Below, piece by piece: positions 3,395-28,325 of a stretch of 64,000 bases of DNA. The position numbers and the translations under genes are program-made. The notes beneath the pieces were generated by a model that saw only the letters and a program-made list of their open reading frames with translations, ran no database searches and had not been told where the DNA came from. The DNA comes from Candidatus Nanoarchaeia archaeon (lineage in GTDB: Archaea; Nanobdellota; Nanobdellia; Jingweiarchaeales; Jingweiarchaeaceae). How positions within the stretch are numbered: the stretch's first letter is position 1; each line of letters begins with the position of its first letter. The stretch lies in assembly GCA_038874075.1 (NCBI GenBank), contig JAVZDD010000002.1:4605-68604 (forward strand), given 5' to 3'.

Positions 3395-3661
3395 ATGGTA
3401 GAAAAAAGCGATAGGGTTTTTTCAAAGAACATACTTGGTAAGACAGTCGTCAGTAAGGCTGGAAAAAAGTTTGGGGAGGTTGGTGACATCATTTTCGAAA
3501 CGAGAACAGGTGAATTGATATATGTTGTACTGAAAAATTCAACGAGCTACGCATCACAATTTGAACTTGAGAAAGATGCAAATGGTAATTTTCAAGTTCC
3601 ATTTAATGCAGTTATAGCAGTTGGTGACTTTGTTGTTGTAGCAGAAGAAGATATCATATAA
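3395..3661 (+). CDS. PRC-barrel domain protein
   Basis: 88 aa; ILGKTVVSKAGKKFGEVGDIIFETRTGELIYVVL pattern typical of archaeal PRC barrel proteins; SD GGGGTGG upstream of ATG. Confidence 0.55.
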   Translation: MVEKSDRVFSKNILGKTVVSKAGKKFGEVGDIIFETRTGELIYVVLKNSTSYASQFELEKDANGNFQVPFNAVIAVGDFVVVAEEDII

Positions 3662-3751
3662 ACCCCAATCACCACGAATTTATCTTTGATTTAAAGAAAT
3701 TCTTGAAGTTTTATTGAATAAAATAATAAGAAATTAAAATAAGAACTAGAT

Positions 3752-3838
3752 TTACTCTTCTTCTTCCCATTCTTCCTCTTCTTCACCCTCGTCCCATTCT
3801 TCCTCTTCTTCACCCTCGTCCCATTCTTCCTCCTGCAT
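3752..3838 (-). CDS. Hyper-acidic 28-aa micro-protein (MQEEEWDEGEEEEEWDEGEEEEEWEEEE)
   Basis: ATG at 3836-3838 (minus) preceded by GGAGGTG 5 nt upstream; lies just downstream of the zinc-ribbon gene stop; built from 27-bp tandem repeats. Below the 60-aa ORF-track threshold as an independent ORF. Confidence 0.4.
   Translation of the reverse strand: MQEEEWDEGEEEEEWDEGEEEEEWEEEE
3766..3819. repeat. Two perfect 27-bp tandem direct repeats (cccattcttcctcttcttcaccctcgt) with partial flanking copies
   Basis: Directly visible in sequence 3752-3838; encodes EEEEEWDEG repeats on minus strand. Confidence 0.85.
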
Positions 3839-3858
3839 TTTGGCACCTCCAAAAAACA

Positions 3859-4068
3859 TTACTCCTCCCAGCCTTCGCTCTCGCCTTCCTCTGGCTCGTA
3901 CTCGTATTCCTCTTCGCCGTATGCTTCTTCTTCGTATGCCAAACAATCTTCGCAGAGACTTCTCTCCGGATCACCACAGTTAGCGCAGAACTTGCTGCCA
4001 CACTCTTTGCACGTGTATACTTCATCAACTTCATTTTCACATATTTCACATGCTGGCATTTTTAACAC
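3859..4068 (-). CDS. Small zinc-ribbon protein with acidic C-terminal tail
   Basis: 69 aa; CxxC...CxxC...CxxC...CxxC (CEICENEV..CKECGSKFCANCG..CEDC) followed by E/Y-rich tail. Confidence 0.6.
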   Translation of the reverse strand: MLKMPACEICENEVDEVYTCKECGSKFCANCGDPERSLCEDCLAYEEEAYGEEEYEYEPEEGESEGWEE

Positions 4069-4192
4069 CCTATTAAATCGATAAATAAAGTTTGTATTTA
4101 GTATTTAAGCTTTTTGGATTCCAAAAATTTGATTTTTCATGGATTTTTTATGTTAAAGTATTTATTTTTTGAAAATTATTAATTTATTTAAC

Positions 4193-4753: not shown

Positions 4754-4773
4754 ATAAATTTATCAATTTGAAG

Positions 4774-6156
4774 ATGATTATTTTAATTATGCAAGCAAAG
4801 CAGATATTCTCTTTGAGCTCGATTGTAATAGTAATTTTTTTAGTTGGTTGCATTGGTCAAACAACACAGATGTGCACAAATCCAGATATTTGCAGTGATG
4901 ATAATCGCTGCTGTTCTGGTTACATATGTTGTGATGGTGCATGTGTTAGAGCTGAGACCTGCGCTTGCACAGGAAACATTATTTTGAGCGAACAATTTTT
5001 GAAGAATTACACAGGTACAAATATCTCATCAGGTACAAATGTACAATTCACCATATGCGGACTTAATAAATACTGTGAAAATGAGACAGTCTACATTAAA
5101 GAATCAAATTGCGATGCTCCAGATTATTTAACTTCATTTAAACCAGTTTATAAAAGCTCTTGTAATAATTTCGGTGGTTCGCCTTCTTTTTTCCTTACAT
5201 ATGGTTCGCACACGATTTGTGCATGTATTGACATAAACAAAGATAATAAGTTTGATGGCGGGGAGAGGTCATGCAGAAGTTTCTTGATTTGTCATTCAAA
5301 TCTTTCAGAGACATGCTACTCGGATGCAATGTGCTGTGAGGGTAGATGTATGAATGGCAAATGTTGCTTAACAGAAAATCAAGTGTGTAGGAATAACGAA
5401 GAATGTTGTACGAACTTTTGTTCAAATGGCACATGTAAGGAAATACCAGTAACAACATGCGCTGGTCAGACAAAATTAGATTTACCATCCATTGTTTCTC
5501 CCCAAAGCCCGATTTCTGCAAAAATTTATGGTCTAAACTCACTCTGTGCTGGGCATAAAGTGTATCTTAAAAAACAAAATTGTACTGGCGAGATAATCAT
5601 AAGTACTACACTAGATAGCAACGGAAGTCGTTCATTCCAATTTTCCGCGCCTAGCATGCTCGGTACCCACACATATGCTGCTTGTGTTGATATTACAGGG
5701 AATGAAACATTTGATAAGCCAGAAGAGTACACAACGAAACAGGTTAGGGTATGTTATGGACTTGGGCAAAGATGTGAGAATGATAATGAATGTTGCTGTA
5801 ATATATGTGATTATGTTTGCGGGGCATGCGATGGCGATGTTAACCTATCTTTGAGTGCATACAATGTAACACCCAACGCAACGATCCTTGCAACGATTTC
5901 TGGTTTAAGCAACAGATGCTTGAACAGGACAATTGAACTTAGACAATCAAGTTGTGTGGGTGAATTAATAAAATCATGCAATGTTGAAATGTCTTTCTGT
6001 GAGGGTGATAGATGCACTTATGGTTGCCAATTCTCATTTAATGCACCAGCACAAAACGGAACGTATAGATACTTTGCCTTTTTAGATCTCGATCTAGACG
6101 GTTTCATATGCATAAGTGAAAAAGAGTACGGGTATGCGATTGTCAATGTTATCTAG
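4774..6156 (+). CDS. Cysteine-rich modular secreted/surface protein
   Basis: About 460 aa; N-terminal hydrophobic anchor ending LVGC, about 50 Cys, three about 80-aa repeats (x-GLN-x-C...GxHTYAAC-DI), Cys-rich linkers, many N-x-S/T sequons. Track start 4768 is TTG; ATG at 4774. Confidence 0.6.
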   Translation: MIILIMQAKQIFSLSSIVIVIFLVGCIGQTTQMCTNPDICSDDNRCCSGYICCDGACVRAETCACTGNIILSEQFLKNYTGTNISSGTNVQFTICGLNKYCENETVYIKESNCDAPDYLTSFKPVYKSSCNNFGGSPSFFLTYGSHTICACIDINKDNKFDGGERSCRSFLICHSNLSETCYSDAMCCEGRCMNGKCCLTENQVCRNNEECCTNFCSNGTCKEIPVTTCAGQTKLDLPSIVSPQSPISAKIYGLNSLCAGHKVYLKKQNCTGEIIISTTLDSNGSRSFQFSAPSMLGTHTYAACVDITGNETFDKPEEYTTKQVRVCYGLGQRCENDNECCCNICDYVCGACDGDVNLSLSAYNVTPNATILATISGLSNRCLNRTIELRQSSCVGELIKSCNVEMSFCEGDRCTYGCQFSFNAPAQNGTYRYFAFLDLDLDGFICISEKEYGYAIVNVI

Positions 6157-25050: not shown

Positions 25051-25173
25051 GCGGGGGTAGCGAAGCTAGGTCCAACGCGCAGGACTTAAGTTTAATTACT
25101 TAAGTGATGAGGTCACAATGATATGAAATCCTGTGGCTTAGTGCCCGCGTGGGTTCAAATCCCACCCCCCGCA
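25051..25173 (+). tRNA. tRNA-Leu (anticodon TAA) with about 37-nt intron
   Basis: Acceptor GCGGGGG/CCCCCGC, discriminator A, long variable arm, T-arm GTGGG-TTCAAAT-CCCAC; anticodon stem CAGGA...TCCTG interrupted by about 37 nt (25091-25127 if at canonical 37/38 site). Confidence 0.65.
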
Positions 25174-28204: not shown

Positions 28205-28235
28205 AAGTAAATAATAATTTATAAAAATTTAAATC

Positions 28236-28324
28236 TGCCTGGGGTGGGATTTGAACCCACGATTGCAGCGTATCTTAGCAAAGCTCATGAGCGCTGCGTT
28301 CTAGCCAGACTAAACTACCCAGGC
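28236..28324 (-). tRNA. tRNA-Met/Ile2 (anticodon CAT) with about 14-nt intron
   Basis: Reverse complement: acceptor GCCTGGG/CCCAGGC, anticodon stem CAGCG...CGCTG with loop CTCATG + 14-nt insert, T-arm GTGGG-TTCAAAT-CCCAC, discriminator A. Track ORF 28244..28459(+) is spurious. Confidence 0.65.
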
Positions 28325-28325
28325 A

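What the first reader, a model, noticed from the sequence alone, without database searches (positions are those of the whole stretch)
3752..4068. Zinc-ribbon gene followed by a hyper-acidic repeat micro-ORF with its own Shine-Dalgarno
A 69-aa four-CxxC zinc-ribbon protein with an E/Y-rich tail is followed 20 nt later by GGAGGTG-N5-ATG opening a 28-codon ORF (MQEEEWDEGEEEEEWDEGEEEEEWEEEE). The micro-ORF is built from two perfect 27-bp tandem repeats plus partial copies. It could be a separately translated poly-acidic peptide (DNA or histone mimic, metal chelator), or a programmed frameshift or recoding extension of the zinc-ribbon protein.
Basis: seen in the sequence. Interest (0 to 1): 0.55.

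Follow-up and report, generated by a model that had tools for sequence, protein, structure and literature searches.

The report
Split-off acidic tail encoded as microprotein
In a small clade of DPANN (Nanoarchaeia) archaea, the glutamate- and tryptophan-rich tail that relatives carry on a tiny zinc-finger protein is instead encoded as a separate, conserved 28-40-residue gene right behind the zinc-finger gene; this gene is missing from the gene table I retrieved for this genome.

Summary
On the minus strand, a 66-aa eight-cysteine zinc-finger gene (4059-3859) is followed by a 20-nt spacer containing GGAGGTG-N5-ATG. A 28-codon ORF follows (3838-3752, MQEEEWDEGEEEEEWDEGEEEEEWEEEE), containing a perfect 27-bp x2.5 tandem repeat.

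The same two-ORF layout occurs at the syntenic locus in five lineages from at least 15 assemblies. Each has its own GGTG-type Shine-Dalgarno and ATG, a 10-25-nt spacer and a 28-40-aa hyper-acidic Trp/Phe-punctuated product.

Between the window and its nearest relative, zinc-finger codons differ 24 synonymous to 1 non-synonymous. Micro-ORF codons 1-11 differ 6 to 0, all at third positions. The ribosome-binding region is 16/17 identical.

Many of the 104 more distant homologues carry the EEEW-type tail fused in frame. The micro-ORF is therefore most likely that tail, translated separately from a bicistronic mRNA.

A programmed frameshift is unlikely: no slippery site exists and the frame offset is not conserved (+2 in four lineages, +1 in one).

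Function is inferred only: a polyanionic, Trp-anchored interaction peptide acting in trans. Moderately interesting; a new variant of a known kind.

The parts
3859..4059 (-). Zinc-finger micro-protein gene: 66 aa from ATG 4059, stop TAA 3861-3859. It has an eight-Cys two-zinc finger (residues 1-42) and an acidic E/Y tail ending ..SEGWEE.
   Evidence: ORF listing and sequence. The exact protein is found on 7 contigs. 104 homologues at E<1e-3. Window vs L016: 24 synonymous and 1 non-synonymous codon differences. AF2 pLDDT is 95+ for residues 1-40.
4066..4070 (-). GGGTG Shine-Dalgarno of the zinc-finger gene, 6 nt before ATG 4059. The GTG at 4068 that gives the '69-aa' reading lies inside it.
   Evidence: Sequence. 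GGTG N5-8 ATG is the SD pattern of other genes in the window. Homologues start MPxCE.
4102..4108 (-). Putative archaeal TATA box (TTAAATA), about 45 nt upstream of the ATG. Inferred only.
   Evidence: Sequence. A similar TTTAAATA lies at about the same distance in L008 and is conserved in L016/L004. No transcript data.
3839..3858 (-). 20-nt intercistronic spacer, TGTTTTTTGGAGGTGCCAAA: T6 run at 3856-3851, SD GGAGGTG at 3850-3844, 5-nt gap to the ATG.
   Evidence: The last 17 nt are 16/17 identical to L016/L017/L004, while about 42% of the zinc-finger gene's first 57 codons carry a synonymous change.
3752..3838 (-). Micro-ORF: 28 codons plus TAA, MQEEEWDEGEEEEEWDEGEEEEEWEEEE. No gene was listed here in the retrieved gene table for this genome.
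   Evidence: No gene is called between the zinc-finger and PRC genes in L001/L002. Orthologous ORFs occur in L004, L016, L017, L008, L028, L029 and L030-L035. Codons 1-11: 6 synonymous, 0 non-synonymous differences.
3765..3832 (-). Perfect 27-bp (9-codon, in-frame) tandem repeat, 2.5 copies, inside the micro-ORF. A recent duplication specific to this lineage.
   Evidence: TRF. Relatives have imperfect or no DNA repeats here. A Logan contig breaks inside it.
3857..3859 (-). Alternative upstream ATG overlapping the zinc-finger stop (TAATG). It would give MFFGGAKMQEEE.. (35 aa). Probably not the main start.
   Evidence: It is absent in L004/L016/L017 (TAATTTTT), where only the SD-led ATG remains.
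3706..3751 (-). AT-rich region with oligo-T tracts after the micro-ORF stop: a putative archaeal terminator for the two-gene transcript. Inferred.
   Evidence: Sequence. Comparable T-rich tracts follow the micro-ORF in L016, L017 and L008.
3395..3661 (+). Convergent 88-aa PRC-barrel gene. Used as a synteny anchor. No functional link is shown.
   Evidence: Pfam PRC 1.5e-10. 1936 homologues. Adjacent to the zinc-finger gene in every split lineage whose contig reaches that far (not seen in short L004, L034, L035), and in L019.

Best explanation
The locus is a two-gene operon. One transcript carries the zinc-finger gene and, 20 nt after its stop, a second cistron. That cistron is translated from its own strong Shine-Dalgarno (GGAGGTG-N5-ATG), either by independent initiation or by coupled re-initiation of terminating ribosomes.

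The second product is a 28-residue, essentially polyanionic peptide (net charge about -21) punctuated by tryptophans. It corresponds to the acidic, Trp/Phe-punctuated C-terminal tail that many members of this DPANN zinc-finger family carry fused to the finger. In this clade of Nanoarchaeia the tail is a separate gene, by fission or possibly by expansion of the 3' region. The perfect 27-bp repeat in the window is a recent in-frame duplication inside that gene.

Shown:
- The ORF, its start signals and its reading frame are conserved and under purifying selection.
- Homologues have fused tails.

Inferred:
- Co-transcription.
- Actual translation.
- The function. My best guess is a disordered, nucleic-acid-like polyanion with aromatic anchor residues. 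It would bind a basic surface on a partner protein together with, or in place of, the tail of the finger protein. That protein is itself very acidic (24 D/E against 3 K/R).
For: 1. The layout recurs at the orthologous locus (zinc finger, micro-ORF, convergent PRC-barrel, peptidase M50) in five lineages:
- window/L001-L003
- L004/L016/L017
- L028/L029
- L030-L035, from six independent samples
- L008

2. Every lineage has an SD plus ATG in a 10-25-nt spacer: GGAGGTG-N5, GGAGGTG-N5, GGGTG-N6, GAGGTG-N7, and GGGTG-N6 or GAGGT-N8.

3. Selection:
- Window vs L016, zinc-finger codons 1-57: 24 synonymous, 1 non-synonymous.
- Micro-ORF codons 1-11: 6 synonymous, 0 non-synonymous. All six changes are at third positions and would be non-synonymous in both other frames.
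- The last 17 nt of the spacer are 16/17 identical.
- Within the L030 lineage: 3 synonymous changes plus one K-to-E.
- All length differences are whole codons: 28, 32, 33, 38 and 40 aa.

4. In L030-L035 the ORF is not a DNA repeat (MEEEWKEEPEEWEEEEFEEEVEEEESGEESPEEEMSEE). One of the two other forward frames there contains 4-5 stops.

5. Family context: 104 representatives, nearly all 41-107 aa, with the finger plus an acidic tail. Of 93 tails, 27 contain W, 23 have acidic-W motifs and 8 end in W. Examples are P0011 ..EEEEWPEEEEEEWEEEEWEEEEW and P0025.

6. GGAGGTG-N5-ATG is expected 0.04 times in the window. GGTG-type SDs are used by other genes here.

7. Metagenome pipelines call the ORF as a gene in L016, L017 and L028-L035.
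Against: - There is no expression evidence of any kind: no transcript, ribosome-profiling or peptide data.
- The sequence is GAR-rich. In the more repetitive lineages the ORF is open in most frames on both strands, so openness alone proves nothing.
- The alignable stretch used for the synonymous/non-synonymous count is short (11 codons), and the lineages are related.
- Runs of D/E within the first 30-40 residues of a nascent chain abort translation in bacteria and eukaryotes, and proteomes avoid them (PMC9718836). A stand-alone ORF of this composition should therefore be hard to translate. Archaea have not been tested.
- Spacer lengths of 11, 14, 17 and 20 nt (all 2 mod 3) in four lineages are an unexplained regularity for an independent cistron.
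- Outgroups with the zinc-finger gene next to PRC (L019, L025) have no micro-ORF, so it is not essential to the family.
- The direction of evolution (fission, or expansion of the 3' region) is not resolved.
- The molecular function is entirely inferred.
Confidence: 0.7

Rival explanations
1. Recoding. A programmed -1 ribosomal frameshift (or a hop) just before the TAA joins the two ORFs. The cell then makes a single zinc-finger protein with a long EEEW tail, like the fused homologues. The SD-like GGGAGGAG/GGAGGTG elements would act as stimulators.
For: - Homologues have fused tails.
- The micro-ORF frame is open across the zinc-finger stop in all lineages.
- The frame offset is +2/-1 in four of five lineages, with spacers of 11, 14, 17 and 20 nt.
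- SD-like purine runs flank the stop.
Against: - By eye I saw no X XXY YYZ slippery heptamer in the last codons before the stop in any lineage; no pattern scan was run.
- The sequence before the stop is not conserved: GGCTGGGAGGAGTAA, GGATGGGAAGAGTAA and GAAGGAGGTTAG (GAAGAGGAAGAGTAG in L028).
- L008 needs a +1 shift rather than a -1 shift.
- There is no stimulatory RNA structure (z = -0.74).
- The ATG and a correctly spaced SD are conserved in every lineage. A frameshift model does not require that.
- In L016 and L028 the overlap window available for a shift is only 3-5 codons.
Confidence: 0.07
2. Relic or non-coding repeat. The acidic region is a decaying remnant of a formerly fused tail, cut off by a stop or frameshift mutation, or a slippage-prone purine-rich 3' UTR. 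It would have no protein product.
For: - Perfect 27-bp tandem repeat.
- The trinucleotide-periodic GAR sequence expands and contracts between strains.
- Some family representatives look frameshifted in poly-E tracts (P0040, P0044).
- No gene was called there in the retrieved table for this NCBI assembly.
- An assembly breaks in the repeat.
Against: - The region persists in five lineages whose zinc fingers are only 60-70% identical.
- The SD and ATG are maintained in all of them.
- Substitutions fall only at third positions and are synonymous, and the ribosome-binding site is more conserved than synonymous sites.
- In the E frame the stop always sits exactly at the end of the acidic run.
- The L030 lineage has a non-repetitive version of the same length.
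Confidence: 0.1
3. Cis-acting translation element. The ORF is translated, but what matters is the act of translating an N-terminal D/E run, as in intrinsic ribosome destabilisation in the mgtL manner. That would tune mRNA fate or sense Mg2+ or another cellular state. The released peptide would not matter.
For: - D/E runs in the first 30-40 residues abort elongation in bacteria and eukaryotes in a Mg2+-sensitive way (PMC9718836; bioRxiv 10.1101/2021.02.02.429294).
- The whole peptide would still lie inside the exit tunnel at termination.
- 7 of residues 2-11 are D/E.
Against: - The ORF is the last cistron. A terminator-like T-rich region and a convergent gene follow it, so there is nothing downstream to regulate.
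- Homologues use the same kind of sequence as a normal C-terminal tail.
- Trp/Phe punctuation is conserved. Destabilisation as described in PMC9718836 is attributed to D/E (and proline) runs, so the conserved Trp/Phe have no obvious role in it (my reading).
- The phenomenon has not been shown in archaea.
Confidence: 0.08

Closest known systems
Single-chain members of the same uncharacterised DPANN/archaeal zinc-finger family (e.g. P0011, P0025, P0021, P0058)
   Same: The same N-terminal finger (CxxC-x11-CxxC-x4-CxxC-x7-CxxC, with a 'FCxxCGD' core), 50-60% identical. The same kind of tail: E/D runs punctuated by W, F or P, often ending in an aromatic residue.
   Different: There the tail is fused in frame. 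Here, and in four related lineages, a stop codon, a 10-25-nt spacer and an SD plus ATG separate it into its own cistron. The finger protein keeps a shorter acidic tail of its own.
Cross-brace two-zinc fingers: AN1 (PF01428), HIT, B-box, FYVE, PHD
   Different: No Pfam or NCBIfam model reaches its threshold. All ligands are Cys, whereas the AN1 consensus as I recall it has two His. The FYVE basic PI3P-binding motifs (recalled consensus) are not visible in the sequence. The domain itself is strongly acidic.
Haloarchaeal zinc-finger micro-proteins (C(P)XCG proteins such as HVO_2753, HVO_0758; PMC11241148, PMC10716476, PMC6562870)
   Same: Archaeal proteins of 70 aa or fewer, consisting of little more than a zinc finger. 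Two of the four Cys pairs here are CxxCG.
   Different: Homology was not tested. Those proteins are not described with a hyper-acidic Trp-punctuated tail or a downstream tail cistron.
DSS1/Sem1 and other acidic, aromatic-anchored disordered peptides (histone-chaperone 'cap-anchor' tails, SSB acidic tips, W-acidic motifs). Named from my own knowledge, not tested.
   Same: Small or terminal polyanionic segments in which a few W/F/Y residues provide specific anchoring on basic or hydrophobic partner surfaces. This is the functional analogy I favour.
   Different: No sequence relationship can be shown: 0 Pfam families at E up to 10, and low complexity prevents a homology test. Those proteins are eukaryotic or bacterial, and none is known as a split-off cistron.
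Intrinsic-ribosome-destabilisation sequences / mgtL-type acidic leader peptides (PMC9718836)
   Same: A very short ORF made mostly of D/E from its second codon.
   Different: Those are 5' leaders or N-termini of longer proteins. This is a 3'-terminal cistron with conserved aromatic residues.

Membership tests
AN1-type zinc finger (Pfam PF01428) | Score at or above the Pfam gathering threshold (27.9 bits) | tested here: not met
   15.1 bits, E 0.026 for the window protein. 32 of 76 family members give hits at E<=0.1, best 2.3e-4, in the tool's summary, which lists no member scores against the cut-off.
AN1-type zinc finger (Pfam PF01428) | C6H2 ligand set (C-x2-C-x9-12-C-x1-2-C-x4-C-x2-H-x5-H-x-C) | tested here: not met
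   The sequence is all-Cys: C-x2-C-x11-C-x2-C-x4-C-x2-C-x7-C-x2-C. The first five ligand spacings fit; the two His positions are Cys with different spacing. The AN1 consensus is from my own knowledge.
FYVE domain (Pfam PF01363) | Pfam threshold, and the basic PI3P-binding motifs (WxxD, R(R/K)HHCR, RVC) | tested here: not met
   12.5 bits against a cut-off of 27.8. No such basic motifs are in the sequence, and the domain has 10 D/E against 3 K/R. The motif definitions are from my own knowledge.
FYVE/PHD/RING-like cross-brace fold | Two interleaved zinc sites, two small beta-hairpins and a C-terminal helix | tested here: inconclusive
Independent (SD-led) cistron in a bicistronic operon | Start codon preceded at 5-8 nt by a motif complementary to the 16S 3' end, conserved in orthologues | tested here: met
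   GGAGGTG-N5-ATG in the window, against 0.04 expected. An SD plus ATG is present in all five lineages. Other genes in the window use GGTG N5-8.
Independent (SD-led) cistron in a bicistronic operon | Purifying selection in the proposed reading frame | tested here: met
   6 synonymous and 0 non-synonymous changes in codons 1-11 between window and L016, all non-synonymous in the other frames. Within L030-L035: 3 synonymous, 1 non-synonymous. The sample is small.
Independent (SD-led) cistron in a bicistronic operon | Co-transcription and actual translation | not testable with these tools
   No transcriptome, ribosome-profiling or proteome data are available. The spacer is too short (10-25 nt) to hold a separate promoter, which is an inference.
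Programmed -1 ribosomal frameshift genes (e.g. dnaX, Saccharolobus fucA1; named from my own knowledge) | Slippery heptamer X XXY YYZ at the shift site | tested here: not met
   By eye, no heptamer is present in the last codons before the stop in any of the five lineages. No pattern scan was run.
Programmed -1 ribosomal frameshift genes | Conserved frame relation and a downstream stimulatory structure | tested here: not met
   The offset is +2 in four lineages but +1 in L008. The RNA fold z-score is -0.74.
DSS1/Sem1 family (Pfam PF05160, accession recalled) | A match to any Pfam-A profile, which would include DSS1/Sem1 | tested here: not met
   No Pfam family at E up to 10 for six micro-proteins. 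The resemblance is compositional only.

The most novel reading that the evidence does not exclude
A disordered protein tail has become a free-standing gene. This clade of Nanoarchaeia would make a 28-40-residue polyglutamate/tryptophan micro-protein (net charge -21 to -28) that acts in trans, where relatives use a covalently attached tail. Its translation would also mean that archaeal ribosomes can complete an ORF consisting almost entirely of an N-terminal D/E run. Bacterial and eukaryotic ribosomes abort on such sequences. The peptide would therefore be both a 'tail-in-trans' interaction module and a natural test case for ribosome destabilisation in archaea.
Probability: 0.3. Interest if true: 0.7.

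Novelty: new variant of a known kind. Interest (0 to 1): 0.5.

Why it matters
- It adds a gene that is absent from the gene table I retrieved for this assembly, and defines a conserved hyper-acidic micro-protein family in DPANN archaea. These organisms have very small genomes, in which retained genes are usually needed.
- It gives a clean natural example of a disordered tail encoded separately from its folded domain. One can therefore ask whether such tails need covalent attachment.
- The zinc-finger family itself (104 cluster representatives at E<1e-3; no Pfam or NCBIfam model matched the members I scanned) is uncharacterised and widespread in DPANN.
- If the peptide is really made, it challenges, or extends to archaea, the rule that N-terminal D/E runs are avoided because they abort translation.
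- Practically, it shows that low-complexity purine-rich 'repeats' after small genes should not be dismissed as non-coding without comparative checks.

Tried and rejected
- **Word-indexed protein search** with the zinc-finger protein found only one near-identical hit. The exhaustive representative search was needed.
- **The genome-contig scan** gave three distant, non-syntenic members without a micro-ORF.
- **The viral-contig scan** gave nothing, so this is not a viral or anti-defence DNA mimic.
- **Pfam and NCBIfam** gave no family for the finger or for the micro-proteins.
- **The profile search of PDB sequences** mostly returned spurious C2H2 'YKCKECGKAF' repeats.
- **Foldseek against PDB** gave nothing significant. 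AFDB was not available.
- **Exact look-up** of the micro-protein sequences in the 15-billion-protein collection found none except the L021 ORF.
- **Gene neighbourhoods** of distant family members (RNase P subunits, HerA-like ATPase, transporters) showed no recurrent partner, so context gives no functional clue beyond the PRC-barrel synteny.
- **RNA structure** of the junction is not significant.
- **Translational bypass** (a T4 gene 60-like hop from GAG 3864 to a downstream GAG) was considered. The matching take-off and landing codons are not conserved in L008, so I rejected it.
- **A link to the upstream VIT1 iron-transporter gene** (metal chelation) was considered. In L008 and L030 the upstream gene is a tRNA synthetase instead, so I rejected it.
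- **The haloarchaeal divisome zinc-finger protein CdpC** (bioRxiv 10.64898/2026.07.16.738847) was read as a lead because of the PRC-barrel neighbour. Its architecture is unrelated.
Full report
**1. The observation**

The feature lies on the minus strand.

- A small ORF with four CxxC pairs starts at ATG 4059 and ends at TAA 3861-3859, giving 66 aa.
That GTG sits inside the GGGTG ribosome-binding motif (4070-4066), and homologues all begin MPxCE.
- After the stop come 20 nt, TGTTTTTTGGAGGTGCCAAA.
- Then ATG 3838 opens 28 codons, MQEEEWDEGEEEEEWDEGEEEEEWEEEE, ending at TAA 3754-3752.
- Tandem Repeats Finder reports a 27-bp unit, 2.5 copies, 100% identical, at 3765-3832.
- GGAGGTG-N5-ATG occurs once in the window, against 0.04 expected from shuffles. 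GGAGGTG occurs only three times on both strands.
- Other SD-led genes in the window use GGTG 5-8 nt before the start. Many first genes look leaderless, which is typical of archaea.
- The zinc-finger tail and the micro-ORF are the only stretches in any of the six frames of the 64 kb with at least 12 D/E in 20 residues.

**2. Where the window comes from**

- The exact zinc-finger protein is encoded on contigs of NCBI assemblies GCA_025920685.1 and GCA_025920765.1 and on a Logan assembly.
- The neighbouring PRC-barrel protein is labelled 'Candidatus Nanoarchaeia archaeon' by NCBI.
- Distant relatives of the finger come from Parvarchaeota, Woesearchaeota and Nanoarchaeota MAGs.
- This is therefore a DPANN archaeon.
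- In the gene table retrieved for the NCBI assemblies, no gene is called between the zinc-finger gene and the PRC-barrel gene. The locus is identical in the three near-identical assemblies, and one contig breaks inside the repeat.

**3. The zinc-finger family**

- The word-indexed search found only one close relative.
- An exhaustive phmmer search of 1.84 billion representatives with the 45-residue finger found 104 proteins at E<1e-3. Nearly all are 41-107 aa, with the finger at the N-terminus.
- Their sequences show a constant finger followed by an acidic tail.
- Of the 93 representatives that passed my one-finger, 120-aa-or-less filter, the median tail length is 19 aa and the median D/E fraction 0.44.
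- 27 tails contain Trp, 23 have acidic-Trp motifs, 11 have two or more, and 8 end in Trp.
- Examples:
  - P0011: ..SYEAEEEEWPEEEEEEWEEEEWEEEEW
  - P0025: ..GWEEGEEEEWEEEEVEWEEEEEEWEDEDWGDEDWEEEEPN
  - P0021: ..EEPDEDWEDDDWEELGEEPDEDWEESDLAE
- The kind of sequence that forms the window's micro-ORF is therefore a normal, in-frame tail in other members.
- No Pfam or NCBIfam model reaches threshold. Weak hits are spread over B-box, HIT, AN1, MYND, C1, RING and FYVE models.
- An AlphaFold2 model built on the family alignment is confident for residues 1-40 (pLDDT 95+). It has a helix at 37-47 and a low-confidence tail.
- I read it as an unclassified two-zinc finger of the cross-brace kind (an arrangement inferred from the fold class), not a simple zinc ribbon.

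**4. Orthologous loci**

I used the conserved PRC-barrel neighbour (1936 homologues) and the finger itself as anchors. The same split arrangement turned up in five lineages.

| Lineage | Spacer | Start signal | Product |
|---|---|---|---|
| Window | 20 nt | GGAGGTG-N5-ATG | 28 aa |
| L004/L016/L017 (three samples; PRC 90-92% identical) | 17 nt (tttttggaggtgctaaa) | GGAGGTG-N5-ATG | MQEEEWDEGEEDTGEEEEDWGEEEEEEYTEEEE (33 aa), or ..EEEEEDTGEEE (32 aa) |
| L028/L029 | 11 nt | GGGTG-N6-ATG | MKKFEEEEEEPEEEEEEWEEEPEEEWEEEEPEEEEWEE (38 aa), or 40 aa with an in-frame EE insertion |
| L030-L035 (six independent samples) | 14 nt | GAGGTG-N7-ATG | MEEEWKEEPEEWEEEEFEEEVEEEESGEESPEEEMSEE (38 aa) |
| L008 (375-kb contig; finger found on 11 contigs) | 10 or 25 nt | GGGTG-N6-ATG or GAGGT-N8-ATG | (MRFVK)MEEWEEEPPEEEEDWEEEEWEEEEWEEEE |

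- All loci whose contigs extend far enough have the PRC-barrel gene convergent downstream (L004, L034 and L035 are too short to show it), and those that extend further show peptidase M50 genes beyond it.
- Metagenome gene callers call the micro-ORF in L016, L017 and L028-L035.
- More distant syntenic loci have the finger gene with a short fused tail and no micro-ORF (L019/L020, L025/L026).
- Others have lost the synteny (L022, L024, L027).
- L021 has no finger gene there, but does have a stand-alone acidic ORF (MAFAEDDEDTETGDEEDYEEESDEED) behind GGGGAGGT.

**5. Is it coding?**

Openness alone means little. GAR-rich DNA is open in most frames on both strands. The substitution pattern is more informative.

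- Between the window and L016, zinc-finger codons 1-57 differ at 24 synonymous and 1 non-synonymous codon. Synonymous sites are therefore far from identical.
- Over the unambiguously alignable first 11 codons of the micro-ORF there are 6 differences. All are at third positions and all synonymous in the E/W frame. All would be non-synonymous in both other frames.
- If differences fell at random over codon positions, six out of six at position 3 would have probability about 0.0014 (my arithmetic).
- The 17 nt before the ATG, which hold the SD, are 16/17 identical. That is more conserved than synonymous sites.
- Within the L030 lineage I count three synonymous changes and one K-to-E.
- All length differences are whole codons. 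That is weaker evidence, because the repeat unit is itself trinucleotide-periodic.
- In L030-L035 the sequence is not a DNA repeat, and one of the other two forward frames has 4-5 stops.
- In every lineage the E-frame stop sits exactly at the end of the acidic run and is followed by AT-rich, T-tract DNA.

I conclude that the ORF is under purifying selection as a protein-coding sequence with its own start signals.

**6. Frameshift or separate cistron?**

A -1 shift before the TAA would fuse the ORFs in the window, and the -1 frame is open across the junction. Several things argue against recoding:

- By eye, no lineage has an X XXY YYZ heptamer before the stop.
- The sequences before the stop differ between lineages.
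- The junction has no significant RNA structure (z = -0.74).
- L008 has the ORF in the +1 frame.
- Every lineage keeps an ATG with a correctly spaced SD, which recoding does not need.

One regularity remains unexplained. The spacers of the other four lineages are 11, 14, 17 and 20 nt, all 2 mod 3. This may be chance, at roughly (1/3)^3 for three indel events. I keep recoding as a low-probability rival.

The window's alternative ATG overlapping the stop (TAATG) is absent in the sister lineage, so the SD-led ATG 3838 is the likely start.

The T6 run in the spacer could cause some termination by archaeal RNA polymerase. It is not conserved outside the two closest lineages. This point is inference.

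**7. Mechanism and function**

Best-supported picture:

- One transcript and two cistrons.
- The finger protein has 66 aa, with 24 D/E against 3 K/R.
- The second product is a 28-aa polyanion with three Trp residues.
- That product corresponds to the family's tail, either split off or newly expanded from the 3' region.
- The perfect 27-bp repeat is a recent nine-codon duplication private to this lineage.

What the peptide does is inferred only:

- By analogy (my own knowledge) with DSS1/Sem1, histone-chaperone acidic 'cap-anchor' tails, SSB acidic tips and W-acidic motifs, I expect a disordered, nucleic-acid-like polyanion.
- Its Trp/Phe residues would anchor it on a basic partner surface.
- The finger domain is itself acidic, so the peptide is unlikely to bind it electrostatically. 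Both more probably address a common basic partner.
- Gene neighbourhoods give no recurrent partner.
- The conserved PRC-barrel neighbour belongs to a family involved in archaeal cell division (bioRxiv 10.1101/2023.03.28.534520). It is convergently transcribed, and no link is shown.

**8. A caveat that is also the interesting part**

- In bacteria and eukaryotes, D/E runs within the first 30-40 residues of a nascent chain destabilise the ribosome and abort translation. Proteomes avoid them (PMC9718836; bioRxiv 10.1101/2021.02.02.429294).
- A stand-alone ORF that is almost nothing but such a run is the worst case.
- Three readings follow: archaeal ribosomes cope, the yield is low, or the act of translation is itself the function.
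- I rank the last reading low. The ORF is the last cistron and has nothing downstream to control, and its aromatic residues are conserved.

**9. Verdict**

- The 'separately translated acidic peptide' reading is supported by comparative genomics. The frameshift reading is not.
- The finding is a missed, conserved micro-protein gene and a split-gene variant of an uncharacterised DPANN zinc-finger family.
- It is moderately interesting (0.5). It would be more so if the peptide is shown to be made and to act in trans.

Noticed in passing
window 3395-3661 (+): An 88-aa PRC-barrel protein with 1936 close homologues in Nanoarchaeia/Woesearchaeota. It is convergent to the zinc-finger gene in six lineages. 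PRC-barrel proteins are archaeal cell-division factors (CdpB1-3) in Haloferax. No link to the zinc-finger pair is shown.
   Followed up: partly
window 25051-25173 (+) and 28235-28325 (-): Rfam finds a 123-nt tRNA that ARAGORN misses. ARAGORN reports a 91-nt 'tRNA-???' with a four-base anticodon (catg). Both are probably intron-containing archaeal tRNAs.
   Followed up: no
window 4768-6156 (+): A 462-aa cysteine-rich protein with repeated C-rich modules and a hydrophobic N-terminus. It has no Pfam family.
   Followed up: no
L021 1881-1991 (-): A stand-alone acidic ORF (MAFAEDDEDTETGDEEDYEEESDEED) behind GGGGAGGT, next to the PRC-barrel gene, in a lineage with no zinc-finger gene at that locus. 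It could be an orphaned tail cistron.
   Followed up: partly
family representatives P0040, P0044: Their tails switch abruptly from ..EEEW to K/R-rich sequence. That is what a frameshift inside a GAR tract produces, so poly-E tails are frameshift-prone, either in nature or in assemblies.
   Followed up: no
P0002, P0229, P0230; L012 612-749 and about 890 onward: Some members have two copies of the finger in one chain joined by an acidic linker. L012 has two finger genes in tandem.
   Followed up: no
spacers in window, L016, L028, L030 versus L008: The spacers between the finger stop and the micro-ORF ATG are 20, 17, 11 and 14 nt (all 2 mod 3), but 25 or 10 nt in L008. This regularity is unexplained.
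   Followed up: partly
window 3836-3858 (-): A small hairpin, UUUUGG-AGGUG-CCAAAA, would place the SD core in its loop. L016 has a C-to-U change that keeps a G.U pair. It is absent in L008, L028 and L030, and the overall fold is not significant.
   Followed up: partly
L003 (Logan SRR27170999 contig end, 5257): The contig ends inside the 27-bp repeat, so the repeat breaks short-read assemblies. Copy number in populations may therefore be under-sampled.
   Followed up: no
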